Below are positions 27,800 to 61,250 of a stretch of 64,000 nucleotides of DNA, piece after piece. The stretch's first letter is position 1. Every line of letters starts with the position of its first letter. Under the pieces are notes generated by a model. The model was not told where the DNA came from. It searched no databases and saw nothing but the letters and a program-made list of their open reading frames with translations. The DNA comes from Botryllus schlosseri. Lineage: Eukaryota. Made by a program: the position numbers and the translations under genes. The stretch spans positions 18,230,001-18,294,000 of the forward strand of contig CM119372.1 in the NCBI GenBank assembly GCA_051294905.1, read 5' to 3'.

Positions 27800-30700
27800 C
27801 CGCAAATAGGCTAATCCCCATCATGATGCAATTCCGTCACTCTTAGTATCTTCTTTCCAAATCATATACATATCCTCCTGAAACACCTCACTATGTTTCT
27901 CGCTTACATCACCCATATTCGAACTAATAAAATCAAGGTGAAGGTGCAGGTAATGCGGTTTTAAGGACATGTCCCACTCTATTTTTTCATACATCTCGAT
28001 CATATATATGGTTTACCAGAGGTTTATATTCATTGCTTCGTTTATTTCAAAGAAAATTTTCAACTACATCTCGAAATGCTTTGAATGCTCCTGCTTTTCT
28101 CGCAGTCATTTCATTGTCAAGTGCTTTACATAAGATTGCCAACATTCACGCACAAGCAAAGAGAACCTGCCACAGAAATATACCGTGAAAATCGTTCATG
28201 CCCTTTTCTCGATGAAAAACATCGTTCCCTAGTTTTAACCTTGGAGTCAGAATTTCCGCATTTGATTTAGTGAGTCCCAACTAAATCATCAAGTTCGTAT
28301 TGGTTCGGAATGTGTCGTTCTGGATTTATCTCGGTACGGGAGATGTTGAAGTCGTCATCGTCGGAGTCATTTTCTGTATCTTTAAGCCCTGTCGAGTGTC
28401 GAGTCTTCTGGAGCTTTTTGCTTGGTAGTCTTGGCAGTGAAAACTTACTGCAATACGGAACAGGTGCTTAAGAGGAGATGGCATGGAAGGATATGCAGTG
28501 CCAAGTCATTTTTTAGTTAATCTGAACCTTGGAATGTCATCCATACAGAAATAACAGTCTTCTATAAGGTTTCGAATTTCCCTTCAGATTCTTTAATAGC
28601 AAATGACATTGATGCCGATCTCCCCTTAGGGCAATTCCCTGCACAGACAACCGATGTTCCCACCACTACCTCTTCAAATCTCTTGAAATTTGGTACACGC
28701 ACAGATGAGCTAATTCCAAACAGGATGAACTTTATTTCATAAAAATTGGACTTTGGGGTCAAAAGTTACGTCACTTTGAAAATTGACAATTTTCTGCTCA
28801 TTTCGGGTCTGCACTTTCAGGTTTTATCAATGCAATATTCAAGAAGGTGTAGCTAAATGTTAGACGACAGTTGAGATACGGCACTGGGATTTATTTGAAG
28901 CTTGTCTGATCGTCTATATTTCCAAGTGAAATTTAATGCCCTGTAGGTTAGGGTCAAAGGTTAAATTTAGGGGGAATTTGGTCAATGGTCTAAAATCAGT
29001 CAGGCGTTACACGATTTAGACTGCGGATTGCTCAAAAACATATTAAAATATTTTGGAAAATAGGATCTTAAATGAAAGTTTGCTTCAAGGAGACTTCGTT
29101 CATAGCTGTTTGATTTTGGTTTTTAGACTGCAAAGTGATGAAATTGCAGTTTCAAGAGCACACTTCATTTGCACGTGGAAATGCAGTAGTAGTAGGGTGT
29201 GTTCGGACATCGATTCTGGGGTGCGTGTGGGCATCATGTCTGGGGTGTGTTCCGACATCATGTCTTGGGTCTGTTAGGACTGTGTTGCCATTCGAACATC
29301 GTGTCTGGGGTGAGTTCGGACTGTTTTGTCCCTCGGATATCGTGTCCGAGGGGGGTGTTCAGACACCATGCCTGGCGTGTGTTAGGACTGTGTTGTCACT
29401 CTGACATAGTATCTGGGATATGTTTGTGTTGCGCCAGACATGACTCAGACCTGATATCTGCGCACTAATTTTATCCGGACATGCTCCGGAGCTGATACCT
29501 GCCCACTAAATACCCCCAGGCATGGTCCAAACCGGATATATGCGCGCTTAATGGACACAGATATGCGTCAGACGTGATACCCGCATCCTAAACGACGTGT
29601 TTTTGCTGATATCTGCGATAGCTGGGTATATCCACAGTAGTGGTAGCTGAGTTTATCCACATTCACAGTAGAGATAGCTGAGTACATCCAAAGCTTTCAC
29701 TACTGTGGTTATACTCAGCTATCACTGCTGTAGATATACCCAGCTATCGCAGATACCAGCAAAAAACGCAAATATAGAGGACATATATAGGCCAAATGTC
29801 GTTTAGGACGTGGGTATCACGTTTGACGCATGTATGTGTCCATTAAGCCCGCAAATATCAGGTCCGGACTATGCCTGGGGGTATTTGGTGCGCAGGTATC
29901 AGCTACGACACATGTCCAGATTATAATAGTGGGCAGATATCAGGTCTGAGGCATGTTTGGCGTATCACAAACATATCCCAGACACGATGTCCGAGTAGCA
30001 AACACAGTCCGGACACACCCCAGGCATGATGTTCGAACACCTTCCAGACACGATGTCCGAATGACAACACAGTCCGAGCTCACCCCAGACACGATGTTCG
30101 CCTTGCAAAACAGTCCGACCATACCCGAGACATAATATCTGGGGTGAGCTCGGACTGTGTTGTCATTCGGACATCGTGTCTGGAAGGTGTTCGGACATCA
30201 TGCCTGCGGTGTGTCCGGACTGTGTTGCTACTCGGACATCGTGTCTGGGATATGTTTGTGATACGCCAAACATGCCTCAGACCTGATATCTGCCCACTAT
30301 TTTAATCTGGACATGTGTCGTAACTGATACCTGCGCACCAAATACTCCCAGGCATATAGTCTCGACCTGATATCTGCGGGCTTAATGGACAGTGGACACA
30401 TACATGCGTCAGACGTGTTACCCACGTCCTAAACGACATTTGGCCTATATACGACCTCTATATTTGCGGTTTTTGCTGATATCTGCGATAGCTGGGTATA
30501 TCTACAGCAGTGATAGCTGAGTATAACCACAGTAGTGATAGCTTTGGATGTACTCAGCTATCTCTACTGTGAATGTGGATATACTCAGCTACCACTACTG
30601 TGGATATACCCAGCTATCGCAGATATTAGCAAAAACGCGTCGTTTAGGACGCGGGTATCACGTCTGACGCATATCTGTGTCCATTAAGCGCGCATATATC

Positions 30701-38998: not shown

Positions 38999-40849
38999 AA
39001 ACATCTGTTGGATAATCCCGGCTGTGCGAAAAATTATCAAGACGACAGATTTTGCATCATCGGGAGGGGCCGCACTTTCCTCTGTGTGTCTTGGAGTCGA
39101 CCTTTATCAAAATACATCAGTCCAAGCTTTTTCAACAAAAGGAGTTCGTGTACCATCTTCAAATATAGTAGATTGAACGCTCTCTTATCTGAGATCTGGT
39201 TTCATGCTGGTGACGTCATATTTCGAGATACGATTGTTGATATTCAATCTTTCCAATTTTCTACTAGTTGCTGATGATTACCCCGACGAGTGTCAGTCGA
39301 AAATATCCGGGTTTATTTCAATATGAATATACTATTCAATTCATACACAGTAAACACTTCATCATCAGTGATATTGACTGGAGAAAGGCTTGCATATTCG
39401 TGGCGCTGTTGTTGCCAGAGCACACCTTACGTCTGGCTCTCAATTGCAGACTTGAATTTGAAAGTGTGGTGCAATGCAGGATGTGAACTGTGAAGTCGTA
39501 AGATTTTGAGAGCATTTTCGATCTTATGCAGCTAACTGAGCCATAGCGGGAGCAAAGTGTTTTGTGTCTTTTATGACCTTTTCATACATCGCAAGGTTCG
39601 ACGCCTTCATATCCGTATGGACTATGGTATATATCGGGCATTATCCGAATAAAAGTTACCGTCGTGGGTTAACTGAATCGGGAATGTCGCGGTGTGGAAC
39701 GTGCGTGATCAATTGGTAAGTAGGTGACGGGAGGTGCCGGAATTTATGTACAACACAGCTCATCGAAATGAATACCCCTTTTTGTAGTTTGAATGGTAAA
39801 TAGAATTGATTTAAATCGATAGGTTGATGACAATCCACTCATACTGCACACTTCGTATGGAACAGAGTTTTGGTACAACGCAATGCGATTTTTGAGGTTG
39901 AGCAGGGGTCACCTACGCGGTGCTCGCGAGAACCAAATGAGTCACCCGCGGTCGAAGTAGCAAATATTCAAATGAGAGTGGGAGATATGAAAGTCGAAGC
40001 GGAGAAGGGTTTCATACGAACAGCAGCTGAGCATGGCTCAGTCAACCCTACGAACGCAGTTCTCGATTGGGGCGTTTCTCGCCTTCGCCTACGCCTACGC
40101 GGATGCTTAACCGGAATCTAGTTAATATACCCTATAGTCTCGACTCGACGCGGAGATATGCACTTCAGCGCGCAGTGCGGCAACGCAACTGAGAAGGGAG
40201 TTACCTATGCATTTAAACGGGCGCTGTATCGATATTTCGCTCACATACACGTTGAACTACTAAAATACGTGTGTAACTGTATACCCTCAGTCTACACCAG
40301 TGCTCTTCAACCTTTTTCGTCGTGGTACACCATTTTAACGTTTACTCAAAACTCGTACTCCGTTAACACAGACTCCGTAGTAAGCCTATTTCTGAGGTGC
40401 TCTGTTCAACCTTTTTTGCAAGTCACGGCCATATTTCGAAAACATATATAGCATAGGAACTCAGCTCAGCGCAGAGTCGTCAGGAATGATCCATCTGGAC
40501 GAAAAATACTCATGTTCAATTGGCTACTGGGAACCTCGCACAGCAGTCAGTCCTCGTGGTGTTCTGTGCCACCACTGATTTCTTGAGATATACCTTGCGT
40601 ATGAAATGTTCTAGTTGTAGGAACAGAGCATCCCCGCAGCCATTTTATATATGTACCAAAATCGCGAGTATTCATGTTAGGAAAAGTAATTTGGACCCAT
40701 CTTCTAGTCGCGCGGAGCGATAGTTTTTTTCAAACCCCCGTGAACGAATTTCGTCGATAATATTAGTAGTTTCACATATTTCTGTAAAATATTTATCATT
40801 GTCAGCCCACCTGATCAGATTAACCGGCAGAGCTGATGGAGTAGGCCAG

Positions 40850-43660: not shown

Positions 43661-45130
43661 ACTCCAAAGCCGTAATTCAGACACAAAATTGATCGGCTGG
43701 TAAATATCTGCACCGACTGTGTACCATCCAACACCACGCATATACTTTTATATATTTATAAATAATGGTCATGCCAAGTTAACAGCAACGACCGTCGAGT
43801 GTCTTAAATATTCACGAATGGAGAAGATGAATATTTCAATGAAACTTTTCTAACACGGCAAACATAATTTTTGAAATTGGCAAGGTGCATTTTAGTTGAA
43901 TGCTGTATATCATTCCATGCTGCCAATGATGCTGAAATAACTTTGAAAAGTGTAATAACAGATTCACAGTGTAGGACCTTCCAAGGCTTTATCTGGGCTC
44001 CTCATCGCTAACCTCGTTGCGATTGCAGCGTATGAAAAGCCGAGCCAAACATAGTCGGCAGTAGAGACGAAGACACAAACGCATGAAAAATGAGGGAGAC
44101 CGATGGTAAAAGAGTGCGAGTGTGAGAAGTCGCCCGGAGGATGACGAAAAGCAAAGAAAATGAATATTATACATGCTACTGTCGGTGCGCACATGATCTC
44201 CATAGGCGAGAAGTGCCGCTGTTGCGTCAATAAAACAAACAAACCTACCAAGATTTGTTTGCGAACGCGAACCTCCAAATTTCTGAGTTTCACACACTAA
44301 ACACGAACGTGAACCACATGTTCGCGTTCGCACCCTCCATAACCCCTGGTATAAGCAAGCTTCTCCTCGGCATCATTCGTACCGGTGGCTCACAATCCCT
44401 ATAACGTGGACTTTCGGTGTACACTGTACACACCGTGCAAGTGTTACGTGTGACTTTCGTTACGACAAGCATTATAGTCCTAGCAGAATTCTGTTCTATT
44501 CTCGTATAGGGTTCTATTTCTAGCTGGCCCCTAACCTTGTTCCGATATTATTTATTCATAAGTAAAATCTGTATGACGTCAGTCACACGCTGATCTTAAT
44601 ATGGGTCGTATAGCTAACACGAAGATTAGTGGGAATGACAAATCATCGGTGATAAAGTTGCACAATGGGTATAGTGTGGCAAAACAGTCACAGTTTTAAA
44701 AAGTATGTGTACTACCATGCATGTTATGTTACAGGGGCCGCCAACTAGAGGTCGACCGATATTGATTTTTACAGGCCGATACCGATACCGATATATCGGC
44801 ACACTCACAGGCCGATAACCGATATCTGAAAATATGGTTGGCGGTACTAAACTTGAGTATTGCTTTCACAACTACATTCATTGCAGTAAAGAATTTATTA
44901 ACTCGAAGACTTTTCGTGTGCCCCTTATCGAGAGTTAACGGCACAATAATAAGCATACAGAGAGAGATTCAAACGAAAACCAAAATGGCAAAGTATGACG
45001 TAATAATACAATAATAAAAAATTAACGCTAGGCAAAGTCAGCTGTACCGGTAGTCATAACAAGAGACGAGAGAAAATCAAATTATACTATAATACACGGA
45101 AGACAACACACAGACAAATAGCGGTATATA

Positions 45131-47746
45131 TTAATGGGAAATTTTGAGATTATATAGAAACTCTTTCTGCCGACATAAATCCGGATTGGTCAATTTTATT
45201 ATGGTTGACTCCAAGACAGACAGATGGAAGGCAGATCTGCATTTAGCAATCACAGTGAACATACTGTCATTGTAATGACTGGCACACACCGGGTAGTTCA
45301 TTAAATGTTGACCAATTGCAGAGTTGAACGCTGAGACCTGGTTGTAGGAAGCAGAGTCAACCGCTTCCTTACACCGACGAACAAGTGCAGATCGATCGAC
45401 AGGCTTGTTTACTGACCTAATCGATTTAGGCACATGTTGGTTCACTCGTTCAGCCAACCGCAAAGATGTGCGACCCACATACCGACTATCACAGTGGCAT
45501 TGGAATTTATATACAATATTACTTGTTTGTAAAGCAGGGAGCACATCCTTGCGAGTTTGAGGCATGAGCGGCCTAGTCATGAACACCACTCGGGTATTTA
45601 GCATAAAATAGCACGATTGCACTGCTGACCGGATTTGATTGGAAAAGCCGACCGACACTGACCCAAGCCAAGGGAGATGTATGTATACTGGGCATTTGTC
45701 TGGTCCATGAATTCGTGGCTGTTTGAATTGCGACAGTTTCTTTGTGATGGCAGATTCAATTACGTAGTCTGGATATCCATTGTCAATCAACATGGATTTG
45801 ATTTTATCAATTTCCGCCACGAGCCGAACATCAGAGCATATCATTAGCGCACGGTGAACTAATGACGAAATCAAATTTAATTTCCGTTGTTTAGGGCAAA
45901 ATGAGTCCCAGCGAATATAGTGACCGGTAAACGTTGGTTTCCTATAAACTGAAGTAATGAAACCGAGGTTGCTCTTTTCCACCAATACGTCGAGAAAGGC
46001 GAGTGAGCCGTCAGACTCTTTTTCGATGGTGAAGTTAAGCGACTCGTGCAAGTTGTTTAGAGAAGCTAAGAAAACATTGCAATCGTCTTCACTGTCGAAA
46101 ATTGCGAATGTGTCATCAACATATCTAACATACATGCGCGGTTTGATTGCATTTAAGAAAAGTTTGCTTTCTTGGAAACCAACAAATATATTTGCCAAGC
46201 TAGGCCCAAGAGGTGACCCCATTGCCAAACCATCTATTTGGAGATACATGTTGTTGTTGAAGCTAAATTCAACCGAACGGGTGGCAGTTTCAAGTAGCTC
46301 AATGAAGACATTACGCGGAAAAGGAGGTGGATGTAATGAACTATTATTATACAGCGCATCGGCACAGATATTGAATGTTTCACTCAAGGGGACATTAGTA
46401 AAGAGACTGGTGATATCAAAGGAGCTAAGGAATGAGTTCGAGGTATTTATATCAAAGTTTCTGATGTTGTCAACGAAGGTGAATGAATCAATAACGCAAT
46501 TTGAAGAGTAGAGTTTACGCACATGTTCGATTACCGTATTCAGCCATTTGGCCAAACAATGTTGCGCAGAGCCGACCATCGATAATATCGGGCGAAGCGG
46601 TGCGTTGCTCTTATGAACTTTCGGCAGTCCATACATGCGAGGTCTTTGTGAGCCAGATGGCCTCACCATCTCGTACACTTCTTTCGGTAACGCACCTTCT
46701 TTCTTTAAATCGAGTAATCTTCTCTGTAACTTTTTCTCCAATTTACCGGTTTGGTCATGTGATTCGGCGGAGCCAAGAAATTTAAATTTGTCCTCATCTT
46801 GTAGCAAGTGGTTCATTTTTAAAATGTAATCACACTTATTGAGAATAACGACTCCCGATCCTTTGTCAGGTTTCGTGATGTGGATACTTGAGTTGGAGCG
46901 TAGAGACTTAATTGCACGCCAACATTCATTGGACATGAAAAAGTCTCCAACATCCACTGGTGTTCCACAATATGCATGAGCTAGGTCACTCAATTTAGTT
47001 CGCAACGCTGAGTACTTGTCGGCATCCTGCGCATTATGATGGCGTAGTTGGCCAATAAGGACTTCAAACTCCGCAAAAATCTCTTCTCGTTTAATATTTT
47101 TAGGTGGCAAACAAAAATCCAAGCCATGGGACAGGACGAATTCCTCGGTGCTAGACAATTTATAATCGGATAGATTGAAAATAATTTTCTTGTGTACGTC
47201 CGATTTGCCGAATCGATGTCGAAATAAAAACTTTTGATTGCGGTCATACTTCGCCTGGTTTTCTTTCTCTTTCTTAGCATCAATTATTGCCATGTAACGG
47301 CAAAAGCGAATGAGGTCGAAGAGTGACAAAATTCTACAAACCTCTCGATTGAGAACACTGCGTTTCTTCTTCAGTCGTACAATTGATAGACGAAGTTTCT
47401 CAATTTCATCAAATAGAAACGCTCTTTCAATGTTAGAACTGTGTCGAGCACGAGATTTGTCAATTCTATCTCGGAGGAATCGAGGCAAGGTTCGCAAATT
47501 GATGCACTTCTTCAAAAATTCCATTGATGCACGGGATGCTCTTATTCTTCCACGGCATTTAAGTAACAGATTAAGTTTCTTAATCTGAGATGCATTGTAC
47601 CTTTTCTTCAAATACTTGAAAATATGGTTGGCGGTACTAAACTTGAGTATTGCTTTCACAACTACATTCATTGCAGTAAAGAATTTATTAACTCGAAGAC
47701 TTTTCGTGTGCCCCTTATCGAGAGTTAACGGCACAATAATAAGCAT
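45131..47746 (-). CDS. Penelope/Poseidon-type reverse transcriptase + GIY-YIG endonuclease (intact; likely true ATG at 47671, 846 aa)
   Basis: Motifs PDKGSGVV, MYGLPKVHK, LRPI, SFDITSLFTNVP, GLAMGSPLGPSLAN, RYVDD, FLDV, VYRKPTFTG, and a C-terminal NIVYKFQCHCDSRYVGRT...H...SAIGQHL. Confidence 0.97.
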   Translation of the reverse strand: MLIIVPLTLDKGHTKSLRVNKFFTAMNVVVKAILKFSTANHIFKYLKKRYNASQIKKLNLLLKCRGRIRASRASMEFLKKCINLRTLPRFLRDRIDKSRARHSSNIERAFLFDEIEKLRLSIVRLKKKRSVLNREVCRILSLFDLIRFCRYMAIIDAKKEKENQAKYDRNQKFLFRHRFGKSDVHKKIIFNLSDYKLSSTEEFVLSHGLDFCLPPKNIKREEIFAEFEVLIGQLRHHNAQDADKYSALRTKLSDLAHAYCGTPVDVGDFFMSNECWRAIKSLRSNSSIHITKPDKGSGVVILNKCDYILKMNHLLQDEDKFKFLGSAESHDQTGKLEKKLQRRLLDLKKEGALPKEVYEMVRPSGSQRPRMYGLPKVHKSNAPLRPILSMVGSAQHCLAKWLNTVIEHVRKLYSSNCVIDSFTFVDNIRNFDINTSNSFLSSFDITSLFTNVPLSETFNICADALYNNSSLHPPPFPRNVFIELLETATRSVEFSFNNNMYLQIDGLAMGSPLGPSLANIFVGFQESKLFLNAIKPRMYVRYVDDTFAIFDSEDDCNVFLASLNNLHESLNFTIEKESDGSLAFLDVLVEKSNLGFITSVYRKPTFTGHYIRWDSFCPKQRKLNLISSLVHRALMICSDVRLVAEIDKIKSMLIDNGYPDYVIESAITKKLSQFKQPRIHGPDKCPVYIHLPWLGSVSVGFSNQIRSAVQSCYFMLNTRVVFMTRPLMPQTRKDVLPALQTSNIVYKFQCHCDSRYVGRTSLRLAERVNQHVPKSIRSVNKPVDRSALVRRCKEAVDSASYNQVSAFNSAIGQHLMNYPVCASHYNDSMFTVIAKCRSAFHLSVLESTIIKLTNPDLCRQKEFLYNLKISH
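47688..47735 (-). ncRNA. Variant-core type I hammerhead ribozyme in the Penelope pLTR (copies also at 44898-44945 minus and 49185-49232 plus)
   Basis: UGUGCC G UUAACUC [UCGAUAA] GG GGCACA C [GAAA] AGUCU UC GAGUUAA: 7-bp stem I, minimal stems II and III, 6-bp loop-II pseudoknot. Confidence 0.75.
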
Positions 47747-47920
47747 ACAGAGAGAGATTCAAACGAAAACCAAAATGGCAAAGTATGACGTAATAATACA
47801 ATAATAAAAAATTAACGCTAGGCAAAGTCAGCTGTACCGGTAGTCATAACAAGAGACGAGAGAAAATCAAATTATACTATAATACACGGAAGACAACACA
47901 CAGACAAATAGCGGTATATA

Positions 47921-48940
47921 TTAATGGGAAATTTTGAGATTATATAGAAACTCTTTCTGCCGACATAAATCCGGATTGGTCAATTTTATTATGGTTGACT
48001 CCAAGACAGACAGATGGAAGGCAGATCTGCATTTAGCAATCACAGTGAATATACTGTCATTGTAATGACTGGCACACACCGGGTAGTTCATTAAATGTTG
48101 ACCAATTGCAGAGTTGAACGCTGAGACCTGGTTGTAGGAAGCAGAGTCAACCGCTTCCTTACACCGACGAACAAGTGCAGATCGATCGACAGGCTTGTTT
48201 ACTGACCTAATCGATTTAGGCACATGTTGGTTCACTCGTTCAGCCAACCGCAAAGATGTGCGACCCACATACCGACTATCACAGTGGCATTGGAATTTAT
48301 ATACAATATTACTTGTTTGTAAAGCAGAGAGCACATCCTTGCGAGTTTGAGGCATGAGCGGCCTAGTCATGAACACCACTCGGGTATTTAGCATAAAATA
48401 GCACGATTGCACTGCTGACCGGATTTGATTGGAAAAGCCGACTGACACTGACCCAAGCCAAGGGAGATGTATGTATACAGGGCATTTGTCTGGTCCATGA
48501 ATTCGTGGCTGTTTGAATTGCGACAGTTTCTTTGTGATGGCAGATTCAATTACGTAGTCTGGATATCCATTGTCAATCAACATGGATTTGATTTTATCAA
48601 TTTCCGCCACGAGCCGAACATCAGAGCATATCATTAGCGCACGGTGAACTAATGACGAAATCAAATTTAATTTCCGTTGTTTAGGGCAAAATGAGTCCCA
48701 GCGAATATAGTGACCGGTAAACGTTGGTTTCCTATAAACTGAAGTAATGAAACCGAGGTTGCTCTTTTCCACCAATACGTCGAGAAAGGCGAGTGAGCCG
48801 TCAGACTCTTTTTCGATGGTGAAGTTAAGCGACTCGTGCAAGTTGTTTAGAGAAGCTAAGAAAACATTGCAATCGTCTTCACTGTCGAAAATTGCGAATG
48901 TGTCATCAACATATCTAACATACATGCGCGGTTTGATTGC
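47921..48940 (-). pseudogene. 5'-truncated tandem copy of the Penelope ORF
   Basis: Near-identical to 45131-46150; four substitutions were noticed. Confidence 0.95.
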
Positions 48941-51900
48941 GTTTGATTTCGTCATTAGTTCACCGTGCGCTAATGATATGCTCTGATGTTCGGCTCGTGG
49001 CGGAAATTGATAAAATCAAATCCATGTTGATTGTTGATTATAGTATAATTTGATTTTCTCTCGTCTCTTGTTATGACTACCGGTACAGCTGACTTTGCCT
49101 AGCGTTAATTTTTTATTATTGTATTATTACGTCATACTTTGCCATTTTGGTTTTCGTTTGAATCTCTCTCTGTATGCTTATTATTGTGCCGTTAACTCTC
49201 GATAAGGGGCACACGAAAAGTCTTCGAGTTAATAAATTCTTTACTGCAATGAATGTAGTTGTGAAAGCAATAACCGATATCATAGGCCGATATTATTATG
49301 GAAGGAGTAGAGAACAATTTCACCAAAAATATTATATATTAGGCAAGATGGCACTTGTTCATGCCACAGAAAGCTGAACAACAAACGACAAAGCTGATAT
49401 TGAAAAGAATTATTGCTTAATTGTGCACATTCGTTGAAAGTTGGGATAACCCAAAAAACAAAACATGATACAGAATTGCAGGTCAGTAAAGAAAAGGTAG
49501 ATTGTAATGCAGAAAGCATAGTTTCTCTGCATCCTCACCCAGTTAAATTCGTCCTGCAAGGGTAAATCTGTCATATATCACCCTTTATTTCGTCGATTTC
49601 TTGAGATTGAGAAGACGGAGCATTGAATTTCCAATAGTTTTGAATTTTTTATTAAATATAAAATATCGGCCGCAATATCGGCCTTCATAGGCCGATATCG
49701 ATAATCGGGAAAGCTCTAAATATCGGCCTCGATAATCGGCCATTTCGATAATCGGTCGAGCTCTACCGCCAACCCGTGGCCCGCGAGGCAATTTTAGAAA
49801 TTAGTTATATTATCAAAAATGGATTTCCCAGAATGTGTACTTGCTAGGTCAACCAAAAATTTGATTAGTTCTGAGCGCAACTCTTGGGATGTTGATGACT
49901 AAAATATCAGCTACAGCGCATTGGCAGATCCATCGGCCAGTCACATTTCTGGTAGATCTTCGTAAATTACAATAAAGTAGAATATTTTACGGTAGATTCC
50001 TCTACAGTAAATATTTTCTTCGCGCTTCGCGCAATATATTGTCACTCAATTTCTTGCTTTTAATATTGTTACCCCCTCCTGAAAATGAAAGAACGCCTGT
50101 TTCAGATTGAGTCTAACTATATTCGGAATTACGAGAGAAAGTGTCGTCCAACACGCAACCATGCGTTTGCGCTTGCAGAAAGACCGCCGGCGATAAAACC
50201 TATAGGCATAAAATGATTGACGCATGTTGGCCGAAGCTTTCGATATCGATATGTCCAGGCGCAGAATAGTCCTATCTTTGCAAACTGAGCCCAGCGATAT
50301 AATTGAAAATATTATTGACCGATAAACTTTGAAAAAAAAATTCGCGCTTCGCTTCGTCAGTTGCGTGTGGCCCTTTGGCCGAAAGGTTGGCCCCCTCTGT
50401 TACATTGTCTTCGTATATGTGTTCAGAGATCAAGTTTAAGGAATAAAATTAGGGAAATCATGAATAATAATCCTATTACTTTTCCATATATAATAATCGT
50501 AATCGACTATACTTCGAGATGTTGCCGTGACGGAAATCGTTTTAGTTATCGCGCGTTTCAGAAGTAATCGTAATCGCAAGCGATTATACTAAAGCGGTCA
50601 TCGTCCCACGTCAGATCACTATTACGGTTTTGGCAATTTGATGACGGTATTCACACCGCACCTTTAATGTAAAGCCGCAATTGACAGAGCGCTGTGCACT
50701 ATCTCCACGATCAAACCATGAATTCAAACTTAGTCCGCCAAATTCGTGGTTCACCAATGAATATTTTATTTGCTCAAGTATAGCCTATAATATATTCGGA
50801 TACGACTATAGTTTATGTTACCGGATCAGTCATGTCGTCGTGTGCTATCATTTGTGTATTCCTTTCTCCTGCCATGTTTCAGTTGTTGACGTCGAATCAT
50901 TAATAAGAGATGAAGATTGAAATCCGCTGTTATCGTCTGGAATCAAATGTGCTATAGCGAAACATGTTGTACATATTGGGAGAAAATTGGGTACTAGCAG
51001 CTCCACCACACAGGTTTTATTAGTAGACCCGGAATCACCGGGTCAATTTTTTTATAACAATGGCGTGACGTAACAGATTTATATAGAGTCAAAGAAATCA
51101 TAATTACAGACGAACTAACGCTGGCCGTGTTCTTTTATTGGAGGTTGTGGGAGTGAGGCAAGCAATATTCTCCCGTCTGGAGCCGTCAGTGGTGATATTG
51201 AAAATGAAGATGAAATTTATGGCATTTGAGCAGCTGTATAAATACAGCCCCACCATTGATTGTATCGAATTTATCGATATATTGTATAGTATTCATCAAA
51301 TGCGACTATTGTCACATTCAAAAATTTGACCGTTATGACCCTGTGATCCCAGAAAATTATTATCATTATGACACATTTAGAATATATACATTGTGCCTGA
51401 TTTTGCAAATCCTGCCAGGACTCACGATGACGGGCTGATGGATAACATTGAAGGTAATGAGCGAAAGTCAAACAATTACTGCGTAATGCAGCGCAGTATA
51501 TCGTTTGTCATAGATGATTTTATGTGAAATTGTTTCGTGAATGCAAGTACAGGATATGACATCATTAAGTATGATATAATTGCTCAATTAACCTATACGC
51601 AGTCATGGAAGCTATGGTGAAAGGTTCATCAACAAATCCTCCCTGGCGATGCGCACTATTCTAAGCACCGACAATCTTACATGGGTGATTAACTGATCAG
51701 GTAGTCATGGTTGTGGCTAAAATTGAAGTTACGTAGTGAATATCTAGTCATTTACAAGTAGCAATGTTTCTAGGTGCGAAATTGGAGGGTGCAGTTTCGA
51801 GACTAAAGCGAAAAGACTAATGACACGATAGATTGTTGCAACTTTTAAAAATATTATATTACTCTCATAAAGTACTTATGGTAACCAATACTAAAACTAC

Positions 51901-60239: not shown

Positions 60240-61250
60240 AACAAGTGATTTGTGGTACAGAACTTCAGAATAACGCGAAACAATAACTGCATATTGTTAA
60301 TTTATTCGCTAAAAGCTTTTCGACTAACTCTCATCAGTAGCGAACGTTAGTGATGGGGTGAATCAATTTCGAAATGTAAGAACTATTTTGTCTGTATGAC
60401 GTAATAATAACAAAAACAAACAACTAGTAGACGGGCAAGATACGGTAGTAACGGCACAAAACAAACGTTAACGAGTACATATTCGGTTATAAATAACCGA
60501 AAACACAACACATAACATTAATGAAATATTCCAAGAGTGTAGAGGCGTTCCTTCTGGCGACAGAGAATCGGCTTTCGCAGCTTTATGATCGTAGATTCCA
60601 GGACCTTTAAATGAAAAAGAGAACGGCCACGAGCAAGTATAGAAAATTGACTGTCATTGTAATGATCAGCACATTCTGGATGGGATAAGAGATGCTGTCC
60701 AATAGCCGAATTACAAGCAGTAACTTGATCATAATCACGCAGTGTGTCAACAGACTGCGATGAAGGAGTTGGAGAAACATTAGTTATTCTAATTTGCCGT
60801 GGGACATGCTGGCGAATTCTTTGCTGCAAGCGCTGAGACGTGCGACCTACATACCGACTGTCACATCGGCACGTGTATTCATATATATGTTGCTTTGATT
60901 TGTCGCAGGTAGCACATCCTTTTGCGTTGCAGGCATCAGAGATTTCGTCATGAAGATTATCTGAGGTTCTACTTGTGAAAAACAATGCCTCACTGACGAT
61001 TTAATTTGTTTTTCAAACCTTTTGGACACTTTCCCAATCCATGGAAGATGCAAATAAACAGGACATTTTCTAGGTCCAAACGGTTCAACTTTTCTGAAAT
61101 CTTTAAGTTTACGATCTATGGTCATTTTAATGATATGATCAGGATAACCATTTGACTGAAAGATTGACCGAATGTTCTCCAATTCAGAATCAAGTATGAC
61201 TTTACTACAAATCATCAGAGCCCTGTGTACCAGAGTACCAGAGTACCAGA
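60240..61250 (-). mobile_element. Second, divergent Penelope-like element, 5'-truncated and frameshifted
   Basis: ORFs 60847-61215 and 60518-60985 encode the RT thumb/linker and GIY-YIG (IYEYTCRCDSRYVGRT..SAIGQHL). The 3' tail carries a hammerhead and the ORF start. 8-bp TSD GTCATTTG (60232-60239, 61251-61258). Confidence 0.93.
60305..60351 (-). ncRNA. Minimal type I hammerhead ribozyme in the Penelope pLTR
   Basis: ACUAAC G UUCGCUA [CUGAUGA] GA GUUAGU C [GAAA] AGCU UU UAGCGAA: canonical core, 7-bp stem I, palindromic stem III, loop-II pseudoknot. Confidence 0.88.

What the first reader, a model, noticed from the sequence alone, without database searches (positions are those of the whole stretch)
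47688..47735. Non-canonical hammerhead core (U3-C4...A8) in an intact, young Penelope element
Seen: where the second Penelope has CUGAUGA, this element has UCGAUAA at the same position between a 7-bp stem I and a 9-nt stem-loop II/GAAA, with a predicted UUC cleavage site. It is present in three copies (44898-44945, 47688-47735, 49185-49232). Known: C3-G8 is a Watson-Crick pair in the active hammerhead fold, and minimal type I hammerheads occur in PLE pLTRs. Inference: C3U plus G8A is a compensatory change, and the added U4C makes a triple-variant core that CUGANGA-based searches would miss. It may be an active or attenuated ribozyme, possibly working as a dimer through the quasi-palindromic stem III (AAGUCUU) of tandem pLTRs.
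Basis: partly seen in the sequence, partly recalled or inferred. Interest (0 to 1): 0.8.

Follow-up and report, generated by a model that had tools for sequence, protein, structure and literature searches.

The report
Variant hammerhead in Penelope retroelement
The repeat ends of a recently active Penelope-like jumping gene carry a real relative of the hammerhead self-cutting RNA whose core has one known paired change and one rarer change, and whose second stem is replaced by a pseudoknot; whether it still cuts is untested.

Summary
UCGAUAA sits where sister elements have CUGAUGA, in three identical copies in the window. The genome holds 93 exact copies of the 27-nt centre and 277 within 3 mismatches.

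- U3-A8 is a true covariation of the C3-G8 pair. Genome counts are C-G 1184, U-A 1100, U.G 151 and C.A 140. It was already published, also for Penelope-like elements (PMC3088659, PMC4209133).
- U4C is the unusual part. None of the 56 published Penelope hammerheads has it. Here it is derived: 10 older U4 copies against 93 C4 copies.
- The "9-nt stem-loop II" is wrong. It is a 1-bp stem II whose loop forms a 6-bp pseudoknot with the 6 nt just 5' of stem I. This covaries across 31 distinct motifs: 91% of cells paired, against 73% when shuffled and 27-40% when slid.

Activity could not be tested, because the RNA reads were too few. U4 changes cut activity in model hammerheads. Most likely this is a structurally maintained ribozyme that cleaves weakly, if at all.

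Verdict: a new variant of a known kind, of moderate interest.

The parts
47688..47735 (-). Hammerhead-type motif, copy 2 (the finding). PK strand X 47735-47730; G 47729; stem I 5' strand 47728-47722; core UCGAUAA 47721-47715; G10.1 47714; PK strand X' 47712-47707; C11.1 47706; GAAA 47705-47702; stem III AGUCUU 47701-47696; C17 47695. The predicted cut lies between 47695 and 47694. Stem I 3' strand 47694-47688.
   Evidence: Sequence read; descriptor scan; fixed-register parse.
44898..44945 (-). Copy 1 of the same motif, in the downstream pLTR of the full-length unit. It lies 2790 nt from copy 2.
49185..49232 (+). Copy 3 of the same motif, inside the inverted 236-nt pLTR fragment. X 49185-49190; core 49199-49205; X' 49208-49213; GAAA 49215-49218; C17 49225; G1.1 49226.
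45131..47671 (-). The element's ORF, read from the conserved AUG (47671-47669, 23 nt 3' of the predicted cut) to the stop. It encodes a reverse transcriptase plus a C-terminal GIY-YIG-like endonuclease. The stop-to-stop frame runs on upstream to 47758, through the motif.
   Evidence: RVT_1 E 1.4e-09. GIY-YIG E 0.002, 18.8 bits, below the 22.6 cut-off. Sister families align only from residues 24-29 onward.
47617..48944 (-). Upstream 5'-truncated tandem copy (C-terminal ORF part plus pLTR), 99.6% identical to 44827-46154. Together they give the pseudo-LTR arrangement.
49037..49272 (+). Inverted pLTR fragment, 100% identical to 44858-45093 and 47648-47883. With 48942-49033 it forms the inverted 5'-truncated copy that is usual at the upstream end of Penelope-like insertions.
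   Evidence: The arrangement is as described in PMC8557442 (passages).
47684..47689 (-). AAUAAA overlapping the last two nucleotides of the stem I 3' strand. It is kept at the same place in families A, B1, B2 and D and may be a poly(A) signal. That reading is inference.
60305..60351 (-). Comparator: the canonical-core hammerhead of the second, decayed Penelope-like element. X 60351-60346; core CUGAUGA 60337-60331; X' 60328-60323; GAAA 60321-60318; U17 60312.
   Evidence: Weak Rfam hit to RF03152: 22.6 bits, E 0.043, below the gathering score of 56.3.

Best explanation
This is the pseudo-LTR hammerhead of a young, autonomous Penelope-like element family. It descends from the canonical motif of sister families.

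Proposed fold:
- a 7-8-bp stem I;
- a core in which C3-G8 has become U3-A8 and U4 has become C;
- a stem II reduced to the single G10.1-C11.1 pair, whose loop pairs over 6 bp with the 6 nt immediately 5' of stem I (a pseudoknot that would hold stems I and II side by side);
- a 2-bp stem III that could lengthen by pairing two copies through AAGUCUU.

The predicted cut follows C17 (47695|47694), 23 nt before the ORF's conserved AUG.

Shown here: the homology, the covariation of the 3-8 pair, of the pseudoknot and of stem I, and that C4 is derived and was carried through the family's latest burst.

Inferred: selection keeps the fold, cleavage is weakened by C4 but not abolished, and it needs help from the element's protein and/or a second copy. 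Full-speed cleavage is not needed for this element to spread.
For: Homology and register. Six related families in the same genome carry the same layout with different letters: X, 1 nt, 7-nt stem I strand, 7-nt core, G, N, X', C, GAAA, palindrome, H, stem I strand.

The 3-8 pair. Genome counts (matches / reversed control) are:
- C3U4G8 1184/1
- U3U4A8 1100/3
- U3U4G8 151/2
- C3U4A8 140/11
- C3C4G8 141/2
- U3C4A8 124/13
- U3C4G8 7/1
- C3C4A8 4/1
One family shows CUGAAGA, UUGAAGA and UUGAAAA with the same loop.

The pseudoknot, on 31 distinct motifs:
- 91.1% of 248 cells are paired, against 73.1% in shuffles (0 of 500 reach the observed value) and 27-40% when slid.
- 5 of 6 pseudoknot pairs change on both sides.
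- Of 186 pseudoknot cells, 153 are Watson-Crick, 14 G.U, 3 A.C and 16 other. The excess of G.U over A.C points to pairing in the sense RNA.

C4 is derived and was carried along:
- Of 103 otherwise identical 27-mers, 93 have C4 and 10 have U4.
- The 10 U4 copies average 87.3% identity to the window's pLTR and share variants absent from the C4 loci.
- The 30 C4 loci average 98.1%, though they were chosen as the best hits.
- The ORF is intact here and at one other locus.

Literature:
- U3-A8 variants are active in vitro and occur in nature; a U4C viroid hammerhead cleaves poorly in vitro yet supports infection; pseudoknots between stems I and II raise activity, and one natural hammerhead has a 1-bp stem II with a 6-bp pseudoknot (PMC3088659, sections 7 and 8 and discussion passages).
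- The Anolis Poseidon hammerhead cleaves only with its protein present (PMC11167929, passages).
Against: - No cleavage evidence. 107 reads of bulk RNA run X23 lay on the element, depth over the motif was about 1-2, and no pile-up of ends was seen.
- In a comprehensive mutational scan of a type III hammerhead, all single and double mutants in the CUGA turn had low activity except the C:G to G:C swap (PMC9901934, passages). U4C, and in that context perhaps also U3-A8, may therefore be strongly damaging.
- Spread is no proof of catalysis. Hammerhead-dead mutants of the Poseidon element still insert in vitro, and Naiad elements thrive without hammerheads (PMC8557442, passages).
- A non-coding tandem family in this genome carries a C3.A8 mismatch in about 100 copies, so mispaired cores also persist.
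- The predicted stem III self-duplex is weak, -2.9 kcal/mol.
- No Rfam hammerhead model matches at E up to 10.
- The motifs used for the covariation counts were picked by me from pattern lists and are related by descent.
Confidence: 0.5

Rival explanations
1. The motif no longer cleaves. The hammerhead-derived fold (stem I, pseudoknot, 3-8 pair) is kept for another role in the element's RNA, such as a binding or positioning site for the RT/endonuclease protein, or a 5'-UTR or poly(A)-proximal structure.
For: - U4 is invariant in all 56 published Penelope-like hammerheads.
- CUGA-turn mutants have low activity.
- Hammerhead mutants do not affect insertion in vitro, and no reads end at the cut site in Anolis.
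- C4 and C3.A8 cores both persist in multi-copy families here.
- AAUAAA overlaps stem I.
- No ends pile up at the site in the few RNA reads.
Against: - G5, A6, A9, G12-A14, A15.1-U16.1 and H17 all remain intact in 93 identical copies.
- The 3-8 pair is kept Watson-Crick in 265 of 276 C4-type motifs. This is expected if the catalytic pocket still matters, and it is hard to explain for a mere protein-binding hairpin.
- A U4C hammerhead works in vivo in a viroid.
Confidence: 0.35
2. The motif is fully active. In this pseudoknot-braced architecture C4 is neutral, for example because a protonated C or another contact replaces the U4 N3-H bond, so the variant cleaves about as well as its canonical sisters.
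For: - C4 arose in the master lineage just before the family's largest and youngest burst.
- A second lineage (CCGANGA, 141 matches) also carries C4, including in a 199-nt tandem repeat of the retrozyme type.
- The pseudoknot helix of this family is predicted to be strong, -8.5 kcal/mol.
- Tertiary contacts are said to offset core defects (PMC3088659, discussion).
Against: - Published mutational data make U4 changes damaging.
- The second C4 lineage showed no coding capacity at the loci examined, and its copy number may reflect hitch-hiking.
- No RNA evidence.
Confidence: 0.13
3. The resemblance is chance, and this is not a hammerhead relative at all.
For: No Rfam hammerhead hit. Three of the seven CUGANGA positions differ from the consensus.
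Against: - It has the same position, register and flanks as canonical-core motifs of sister elements that are 57-64% identical in protein.
- Intermediates link the cores step by step.
- Chance matches to the linear pattern in metagenomes show none of the pairings: 0 of 118 have 6 pseudoknot pairs.
Confidence: 0.02

Closest known systems
Minimal type I hammerheads in the pLTRs of Penelope-like elements (Cervera and De la Pena 2014, PMC4209133; main text and supplementary Fig. S3 read)
   Same: It lies in both pseudo-LTRs of an RT plus GIY-YIG element. It is type I, open at stem I. Helix III is very short and (quasi-)palindromic, which suggests dimers. AU-rich flanks. The U3-A8 covariation was already reported there for Schistosoma Cercyon elements (about 1300 hits).
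   Different: The 56 published motifs all have a hairpin helix II of 3-8 bp, a short helix I (2-6 nt per strand) and U at position 4, and most have an extra nucleotide after A9. Here helix I is 7-8 bp, helix II is one pair plus a pseudoknot with the 5' flank, there is no extra nucleotide after A9, and position 4 is C.
Natural core variants of hammerheads (Perreault et al. 2011, PMC3088659; sections 7 and 8 and discussion passages read). The U4C viroid case is cited there from Ambros and Flores 1998, which I could not read.
   Same: U3-A8 replaces C3-G8. U4C occurs in a biologically working hammerhead, with reduced activity in vitro.
   Different: Those are single deviations in hammerheads with full stems. 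Here both deviations occur together, in a minimal retroelement motif, and no activity has been measured.
[quoted passage not shown] 2011, Fig. 4 legend and section 7), and Rfam RF03152 RAGATH-1-hammerhead
   Same: Stem II is reduced to one pair with a 7-nt loop, and a 6-bp pseudoknot links the stem I side with the stem II side. The canonical sister motif gives a weak hit to RF03152, whose consensus line shows the 1-bp stem II.
   Different: The published example is type II (open at stem II), with the 3' tail pairing to loop I, and has a long stem III. Here the motif is type I, the 5' tail pairs with loop II, and stem III is minimal. The RF03152 hit is far below the gathering score, and the variant itself gives no hit.
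Poseidon (PAc) hammerhead of Anolis carolinensis (Frangieh et al. 2024, PMC11167929; passages read)
   Same: A pLTR hammerhead next to the start of the ORF. Cleavage is seen only with the element's protein present and is dispensable for insertion in vitro.
   Different: PAc has a canonical C3-G8 core, and its start codon lies upstream of the cut site. Here the conserved AUG lies 23 nt downstream of the predicted cut.

Membership tests
Hammerhead ribozyme (core consensus) | C3-G8 Watson-Crick pair in the core | tested here: met
   U3-A8 in the window. Across 31 distinct motifs the pair is C-G 18, U-A 9, U.G 1 and other 3.
Hammerhead ribozyme (core consensus) | U4 of the CUGA uridine turn | tested here: not met
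   Position 4 is C in all three window copies and in 93 of 103 otherwise identical 27-mers.
Hammerhead ribozyme (core consensus) | Invariant G5, A6, A9, G12, A13, A14, the A15.1-U16.1 pair, and H (not G) at 17 | tested here: met
   UCGAUAA ... GAAA A..U C, read directly.
Hammerhead ribozyme (core consensus) | Three helices around the core | tested here: inconclusive
   Stem I is 7-8 bp: 22 distinct strand pairs average 5.68 of 7 paired, against 4.56 for cross-family pairings. Stem II is only G10.1-C11.1 plus the pseudoknot. Stem III is 2 bp as a monomer, or 6 bp with a U.U mismatch as a dimer.
Hammerhead ribozyme (core consensus) | Site-specific self-cleavage | not testable with these tools
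   The RNA reads were too few to show ends. No bench assay was possible.
Hammerhead ribozyme (core consensus) | Match to a curated Rfam hammerhead model | tested here: not met
   No hit at the gathering score or at E up to 10, either in the whole window or in 101 nt around the motif.
Penelope-like minimal hammerhead (published descriptor) | Located in the pseudo-LTRs flanking an RT/EN ORF | tested here: met
   Copies lie 2790 nt apart and flank the ORF.
Penelope-like minimal hammerhead (published descriptor) | Hairpin helix II (GNNNNN ... NNNNNC) after CUGANGAH | tested here: not met
   Only 9 nt lie between A9 and G12, and there is no extra nucleotide after A9.
Penelope-like minimal hammerhead (published descriptor) | Short palindromic helix III | tested here: inconclusive
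   AAGUCUU is a palindrome interrupted by a central U. Its predicted self-duplex is -2.9 kcal/mol, against -6.7 for AAGCUU.
Pseudoknot-stabilised hammerheads | Covarying base pairing that links the stem I side with the stem II loop | tested here: met
   6 bp in a fixed register. 5 of 6 pairs change on both sides, and 0 of 500 shuffles reach the observed pairing. G.U 14 against A.C 3.
Penelope-like element | Reverse transcriptase domain | tested here: met
   RVT_1 E 1.4e-09, 38.4 bits, above the 29.6 cut-off.
Penelope-like element | C-terminal GIY-YIG endonuclease | tested here: inconclusive
   PF01541 E 0.002, 18.8 bits, below the 22.6 cut-off.
Penelope-like element | Partial tandem (pLTR) with an inverted 5'-truncated copy upstream | tested here: met
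   The arrangement is as described in PMC8557442.

The most novel reading that the evidence does not exclude
The UCGAUAA motif may be a working ribozyme in which C is accepted at the normally invariant position 4, because a covalently tethered 6-bp pseudoknot (5' flank with loop II) replaces helix II and pre-organises the core. The Penelope-like elements of this genome would then carry a hammerhead architecture that I did not find described in the texts I could read: a long stem I, a 1-bp stem II and a pseudoknot. That contrasts with the published view that these minimal motifs lack tertiary contacts.
Probability: 0.3. Interest if true: 0.55.

Novelty: new variant of a known kind. Interest (0 to 1): 0.4.

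Why it matters
- Hammerhead searches in animal genomes use CUGANGA-type cores and a hairpin helix II. Both assumptions fail for these families. The relaxed patterns used here matched about 2850 motifs in this genome, and Rfam found none of those in the window.
- The pseudoknot gives a concrete, testable reason why some 'minimal' Penelope hammerheads might fold without a normal helix II.
- The U4-to-C4 switch, followed by a burst of copies, is a natural experiment on whether ribozyme speed matters for Penelope-like retrotransposition.
- If C4 proves inactive, that supports the view that these motifs serve a structural role or are passengers.

Tried and rejected
- RNA evidence. The look-up of sequencing runs listed no RNA holder. 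Laying bulk RNA run X23, single-cell run X21 and contig sets X1 and X2 on 45125-47915 gave 107, 29, 52 and 22 records. Depth over the motif was about 1-3, and no place showed many molecules beginning or ending. This is too thin to say anything about cleavage. The 'goes back 2790' joint in the X1 and X2 contigs only shows the tandem arrangement, and those runs may be DNA.
- Rfam. No hammerhead hit for the variant at any setting. Only a sub-threshold RF03152 hit for the canonical sister motif.
- Metagenome scan. The 118 parsed matches were chance hits: 6 had 4 or more stem I pairs, and none had 6 pseudoknot pairs (parsed nothing because of my own regex). It served only as a chance baseline. It says nothing about where the motif occurs outside this genome.
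- Second C4 lineage (E) and the C3.A8 family (F). I asked whether they are autonomous elements. The three loci fetched have no ORF of 200 aa or more and no tblastn match to the window's protein, so they cannot be counted as independently active Penelope-like elements.
- Alternative register (C3-U4 taken from the end of stem I, with an inserted C). Rejected, because sister families align base for base with U3-U4 at these positions and stem I would lose its closing pair.
- Plain MFE folding. It predicts either X:X' or stem I but never both, because it cannot model pseudoknots. The z-scores are unremarkable, -0.85 and -1.27.
- Papers not held: Lunse et al. 2017 (PMC5785218), Ambros and Flores 1998 (PMC147498) and Przybilski and Hammann 2007 (PMC1986816). 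A description of this pseudoknot in Lunse et al. cannot be excluded.
- Earlier notes of this scan held nothing on this place or sequence.
Full report
**What is there.**
The window lies in a 495-Mb eukaryotic assembly. Between 44822 and 49272 sits a Penelope-like element on the minus strand.

- The stop-to-stop frame is 875 codons, 47758-45131. It has an RVT_1 domain (E 1.4e-09) and a weak C-terminal GIY-YIG match (E 0.002, 18.8 bits, below the 22.6 cut-off).
- It is preceded by a 5'-truncated tandem copy: 47617-48944 matches 44827-46154 at 99.6% over 1328 nt.
- Upstream of that lies an inverted fragment: 49037-49272 is 100% complementary to 44858-45093 and 47648-47883.
- This is the partial-tandem plus inverted-copy arrangement described for Penelope-like elements (PMC8557442, passages).

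**The motif.**
All three copies read, in RNA sense, UGUGCC G UUAACUC UCGAUAA GGGGCACAC GAAA AGUCUU C GAGUUAA. The decayed second element has ACUAAC G UUCGCUA CUGAUGA GAGUUAGUC GAAA AGCUU U UAGCGAA in the same register.

It is not a local oddity:
- The 27-nt centre has 277 matches within 3 mismatches in the genome, against 0 for the reversed control, and 93 are exact.
- A 309-nt pLTR query gave 44 matches at 90-100% identity, from 40 scored candidates out of 1840 first-look candidates.

**Relatives and the core.**
A protein search of the genome returned 52 matches out of 8442 first-look candidates. Among them are families with open frames at 64%, 58% and 57% identity. I fetched 20 such loci and 20 short loci chosen from pattern lists.

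Their pLTR motifs share the layout but differ in letters:
- UUGAAAA and UUGAUAA in the two 64% families
- UUGAGAA/UUGAAAA in the 58% family
- CUGAUGA in the 57% family
- CCGACGA in a further lineage

Whole-genome counts for the pattern (core plus G, 8-9 N, GAAAAG, 0-2 N, CTT), given as matches / reversed control:

| core | matches / control |
|---|---|
| C3U4G8 | 1184/1 |
| U3U4A8 | 1100/3 |
| U3U4G8 | 151/2 |
| C3U4A8 | 140/11 |
| C3C4G8 | 141/2 |
| U3C4A8 | 124/13 |
| U3C4G8 | 7/1 |
| C3C4A8 | 4/1 |

These are copy counts, not independent events.

One family carries CUGAAGA, UUGAAGA and UUGAAAA with the same loop II. That is the classical C-G > U.G > U-A path.
- Natural U3-A8 covariation, and its activity in vitro, are in PMC3088659 (section 8).
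- U3-A8 in Schistosoma Cercyon hammerheads (about 1300 hits) is in PMC4209133 (main text).

**Position 4.**
- In the 56 representative Penelope-type hammerheads of PMC4209133 (supplementary Fig. S3), position 4 is always U.
- Here, of 103 otherwise identical 27-mers, 93 have C and 10 have U.
- The 10 U4 copies average 87.3% identity to the window's pLTR and share variants that are absent from 30 C4 loci. Those 30 loci average 98.1%, but they were picked as the best hits, so their identity is biased upward.
- C4 is therefore derived, and it was carried through the youngest burst.
- A second lineage (CCGANGA, 141 matches) also has C4 and occurs in a 199-nt tandem repeat. The loci I examined have no long ORF and no similarity to the element's protein.

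Published data make U4 changes harmful:
- A U4C viroid hammerhead is much less active in vitro, yet infectious (PMC3088659, discussion).
- In a full single- and double-mutant scan, CUGA-turn mutants had low activity apart from the C:G to G:C swap (PMC9901934, passages).

**Stem II is a pseudoknot.**
The 9 nt between A9 and G12 cannot form a hairpin beyond G10.1-C11.1. Instead, nucleotides 3-8 of this stretch are complementary to the 6 nt that end 8 nt before the core.

- Examples: UGUGCC/GGCACA here, ACUAAC/GUUAGU in the second element, and CGUGCC/GGCACG, GCUGAC/GUCAGC, GCCGAC/GUUGGC, ACUGGC/GCCAGU, UCUGGC/GCCAGA elsewhere.
- On an ungapped alignment of 31 distinct motifs, with the pseudoknot, the 3-8 pair and G10.1-C11.1 as the structure, 91.1% of 248 cells pair. 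Shuffles give 73.1% (0 of 500 reach the observed value) and slid registers give 27-40%. Five of the six pseudoknot pairs change on both sides.
- The 186 pseudoknot cells are Watson-Crick 153, G.U 14, A.C 3 and other 16. The excess of G.U over A.C points to pairing in the sense RNA.
- Stem I is also supported, more weakly: 5.68 of 7 pairs on average, against 4.56 for cross-family pairings.
- Caveats: I chose the motifs from pattern lists, they are related by descent, and the shuffle control does not correct for that.

How this compares with the literature:
- Pseudoknots between stems I and II are common in other hammerheads, and one natural example has a 1-bp stem II with a 6-bp pseudoknot (PMC3088659, section 7).
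- The Rfam RF03152 consensus also shows a 1-bp stem II with a 7-nt loop, and it weakly matches the canonical sister motif (22.6 bits, E 0.043, gathering score 56.3).
- A search for hammerhead + pseudoknot + Penelope found 14 papers. I read passages of PMC6765202 and PMC7761336 for this point, and neither describes such a pseudoknot. PMC10085705, also on that list, concerns permuted hammerheads not linked to these elements.
- Lunse et al. 2017 is not held, so priority cannot be settled.

**Context of the cut.**
- The predicted cut follows C17 (47695|47694).
- An in-frame AUG lies 23 nt downstream (47671-47669). It is the start that sister families share, since their matches begin at residues 24-29 and their frames close just upstream.
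- In this family the frame happens to stay open through the motif to an AUG at 47746-47744.
- AAUAAA overlaps the end of stem I in four families.

**Function.**
Not shown. The RNA reads were too few. Three points bear on it:
- The stem III self-duplex is predicted to be weaker than the canonical palindrome, -2.9 against -6.7 kcal/mol. The pseudoknot helix is strong, -8.5 kcal/mol.
- The Anolis Poseidon hammerhead cleaves only with its protein present and is dispensable for insertion in vitro (PMC11167929).
- A non-coding tandem family here keeps a C3.A8 mismatch.

My odds:
- 0.5: the fold is maintained and cleavage is weak and assisted.
- 0.35: cleavage is lost and the fold serves another role.
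- 0.13: the motif is fully active.
- 0.02: the resemblance is chance.

**Verdict.**
A genuine hammerhead descendant with a non-consensus core. It is a new variant of a known kind. Its interest lies in C4 and in the pseudoknot architecture. The U3-A8 change is already known.

Noticed in passing
window 46440-47102 (+ strand): Bulk RNA run X23 shows a spliced joint that skips 661 nt with GT..AG ends on the + strand, antisense to the element's ORF (24 reads, 14 start places). The reads carry 46433 T>C, 47172 A>G and 47189 C>G, so they come from another copy of the family.
   Followed up: no
L066 66-658 (G000:C7:13550865-13551457): A 199-nt tandem repeat (3.0 copies, 96% matches) carries a CCGACGA/CCGAUGA hammerhead with the same pseudoknot layout in every unit. 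It looks like a retrozyme-type non-autonomous element, and it has no similarity to the window's RT protein.
   Followed up: partly
L191 (G000:C8:25840700-25846400): Tandem 2522-nt units, 99.97% identical, have no ORF of 200 aa or more. Each carries a CUGACAA core, a C3.A8 mismatch. About 100 of the 140 C3U4A8 matches belong to this loop type, judged by eye from the 100 rows listed.
   Followed up: partly
window 47684-47689 (-), 60301-60306 (-), and loci L031, L034, L042: AAUAAA directly overlaps or follows the 3' strand of stem I in four families. This may be a conserved poly(A) signal a few nucleotides after the predicted cut.
   Followed up: no
window 39283-39302 (+): CCGACGA GUGUCAGUC GAAA, preceded by CUGAU but without a palindromic stem III or a stem I partner. 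It is probably a decayed remnant of the C4-type lineage.
   Followed up: no
window 30070-30157 (-): A long, nearly perfect hairpin with a weak match to mir-2329: 32.9 bits, E 0.01, far below the gathering score of 90.
   Followed up: no
G000, ten loci L193-L202: An older subfamily of the same element keeps U at position 4. It shares diagnostic pLTR variants (for example, at positions 127, 173 and 181 of the 309-nt reference) that are absent from 30 young C4 loci.
   Followed up: yes
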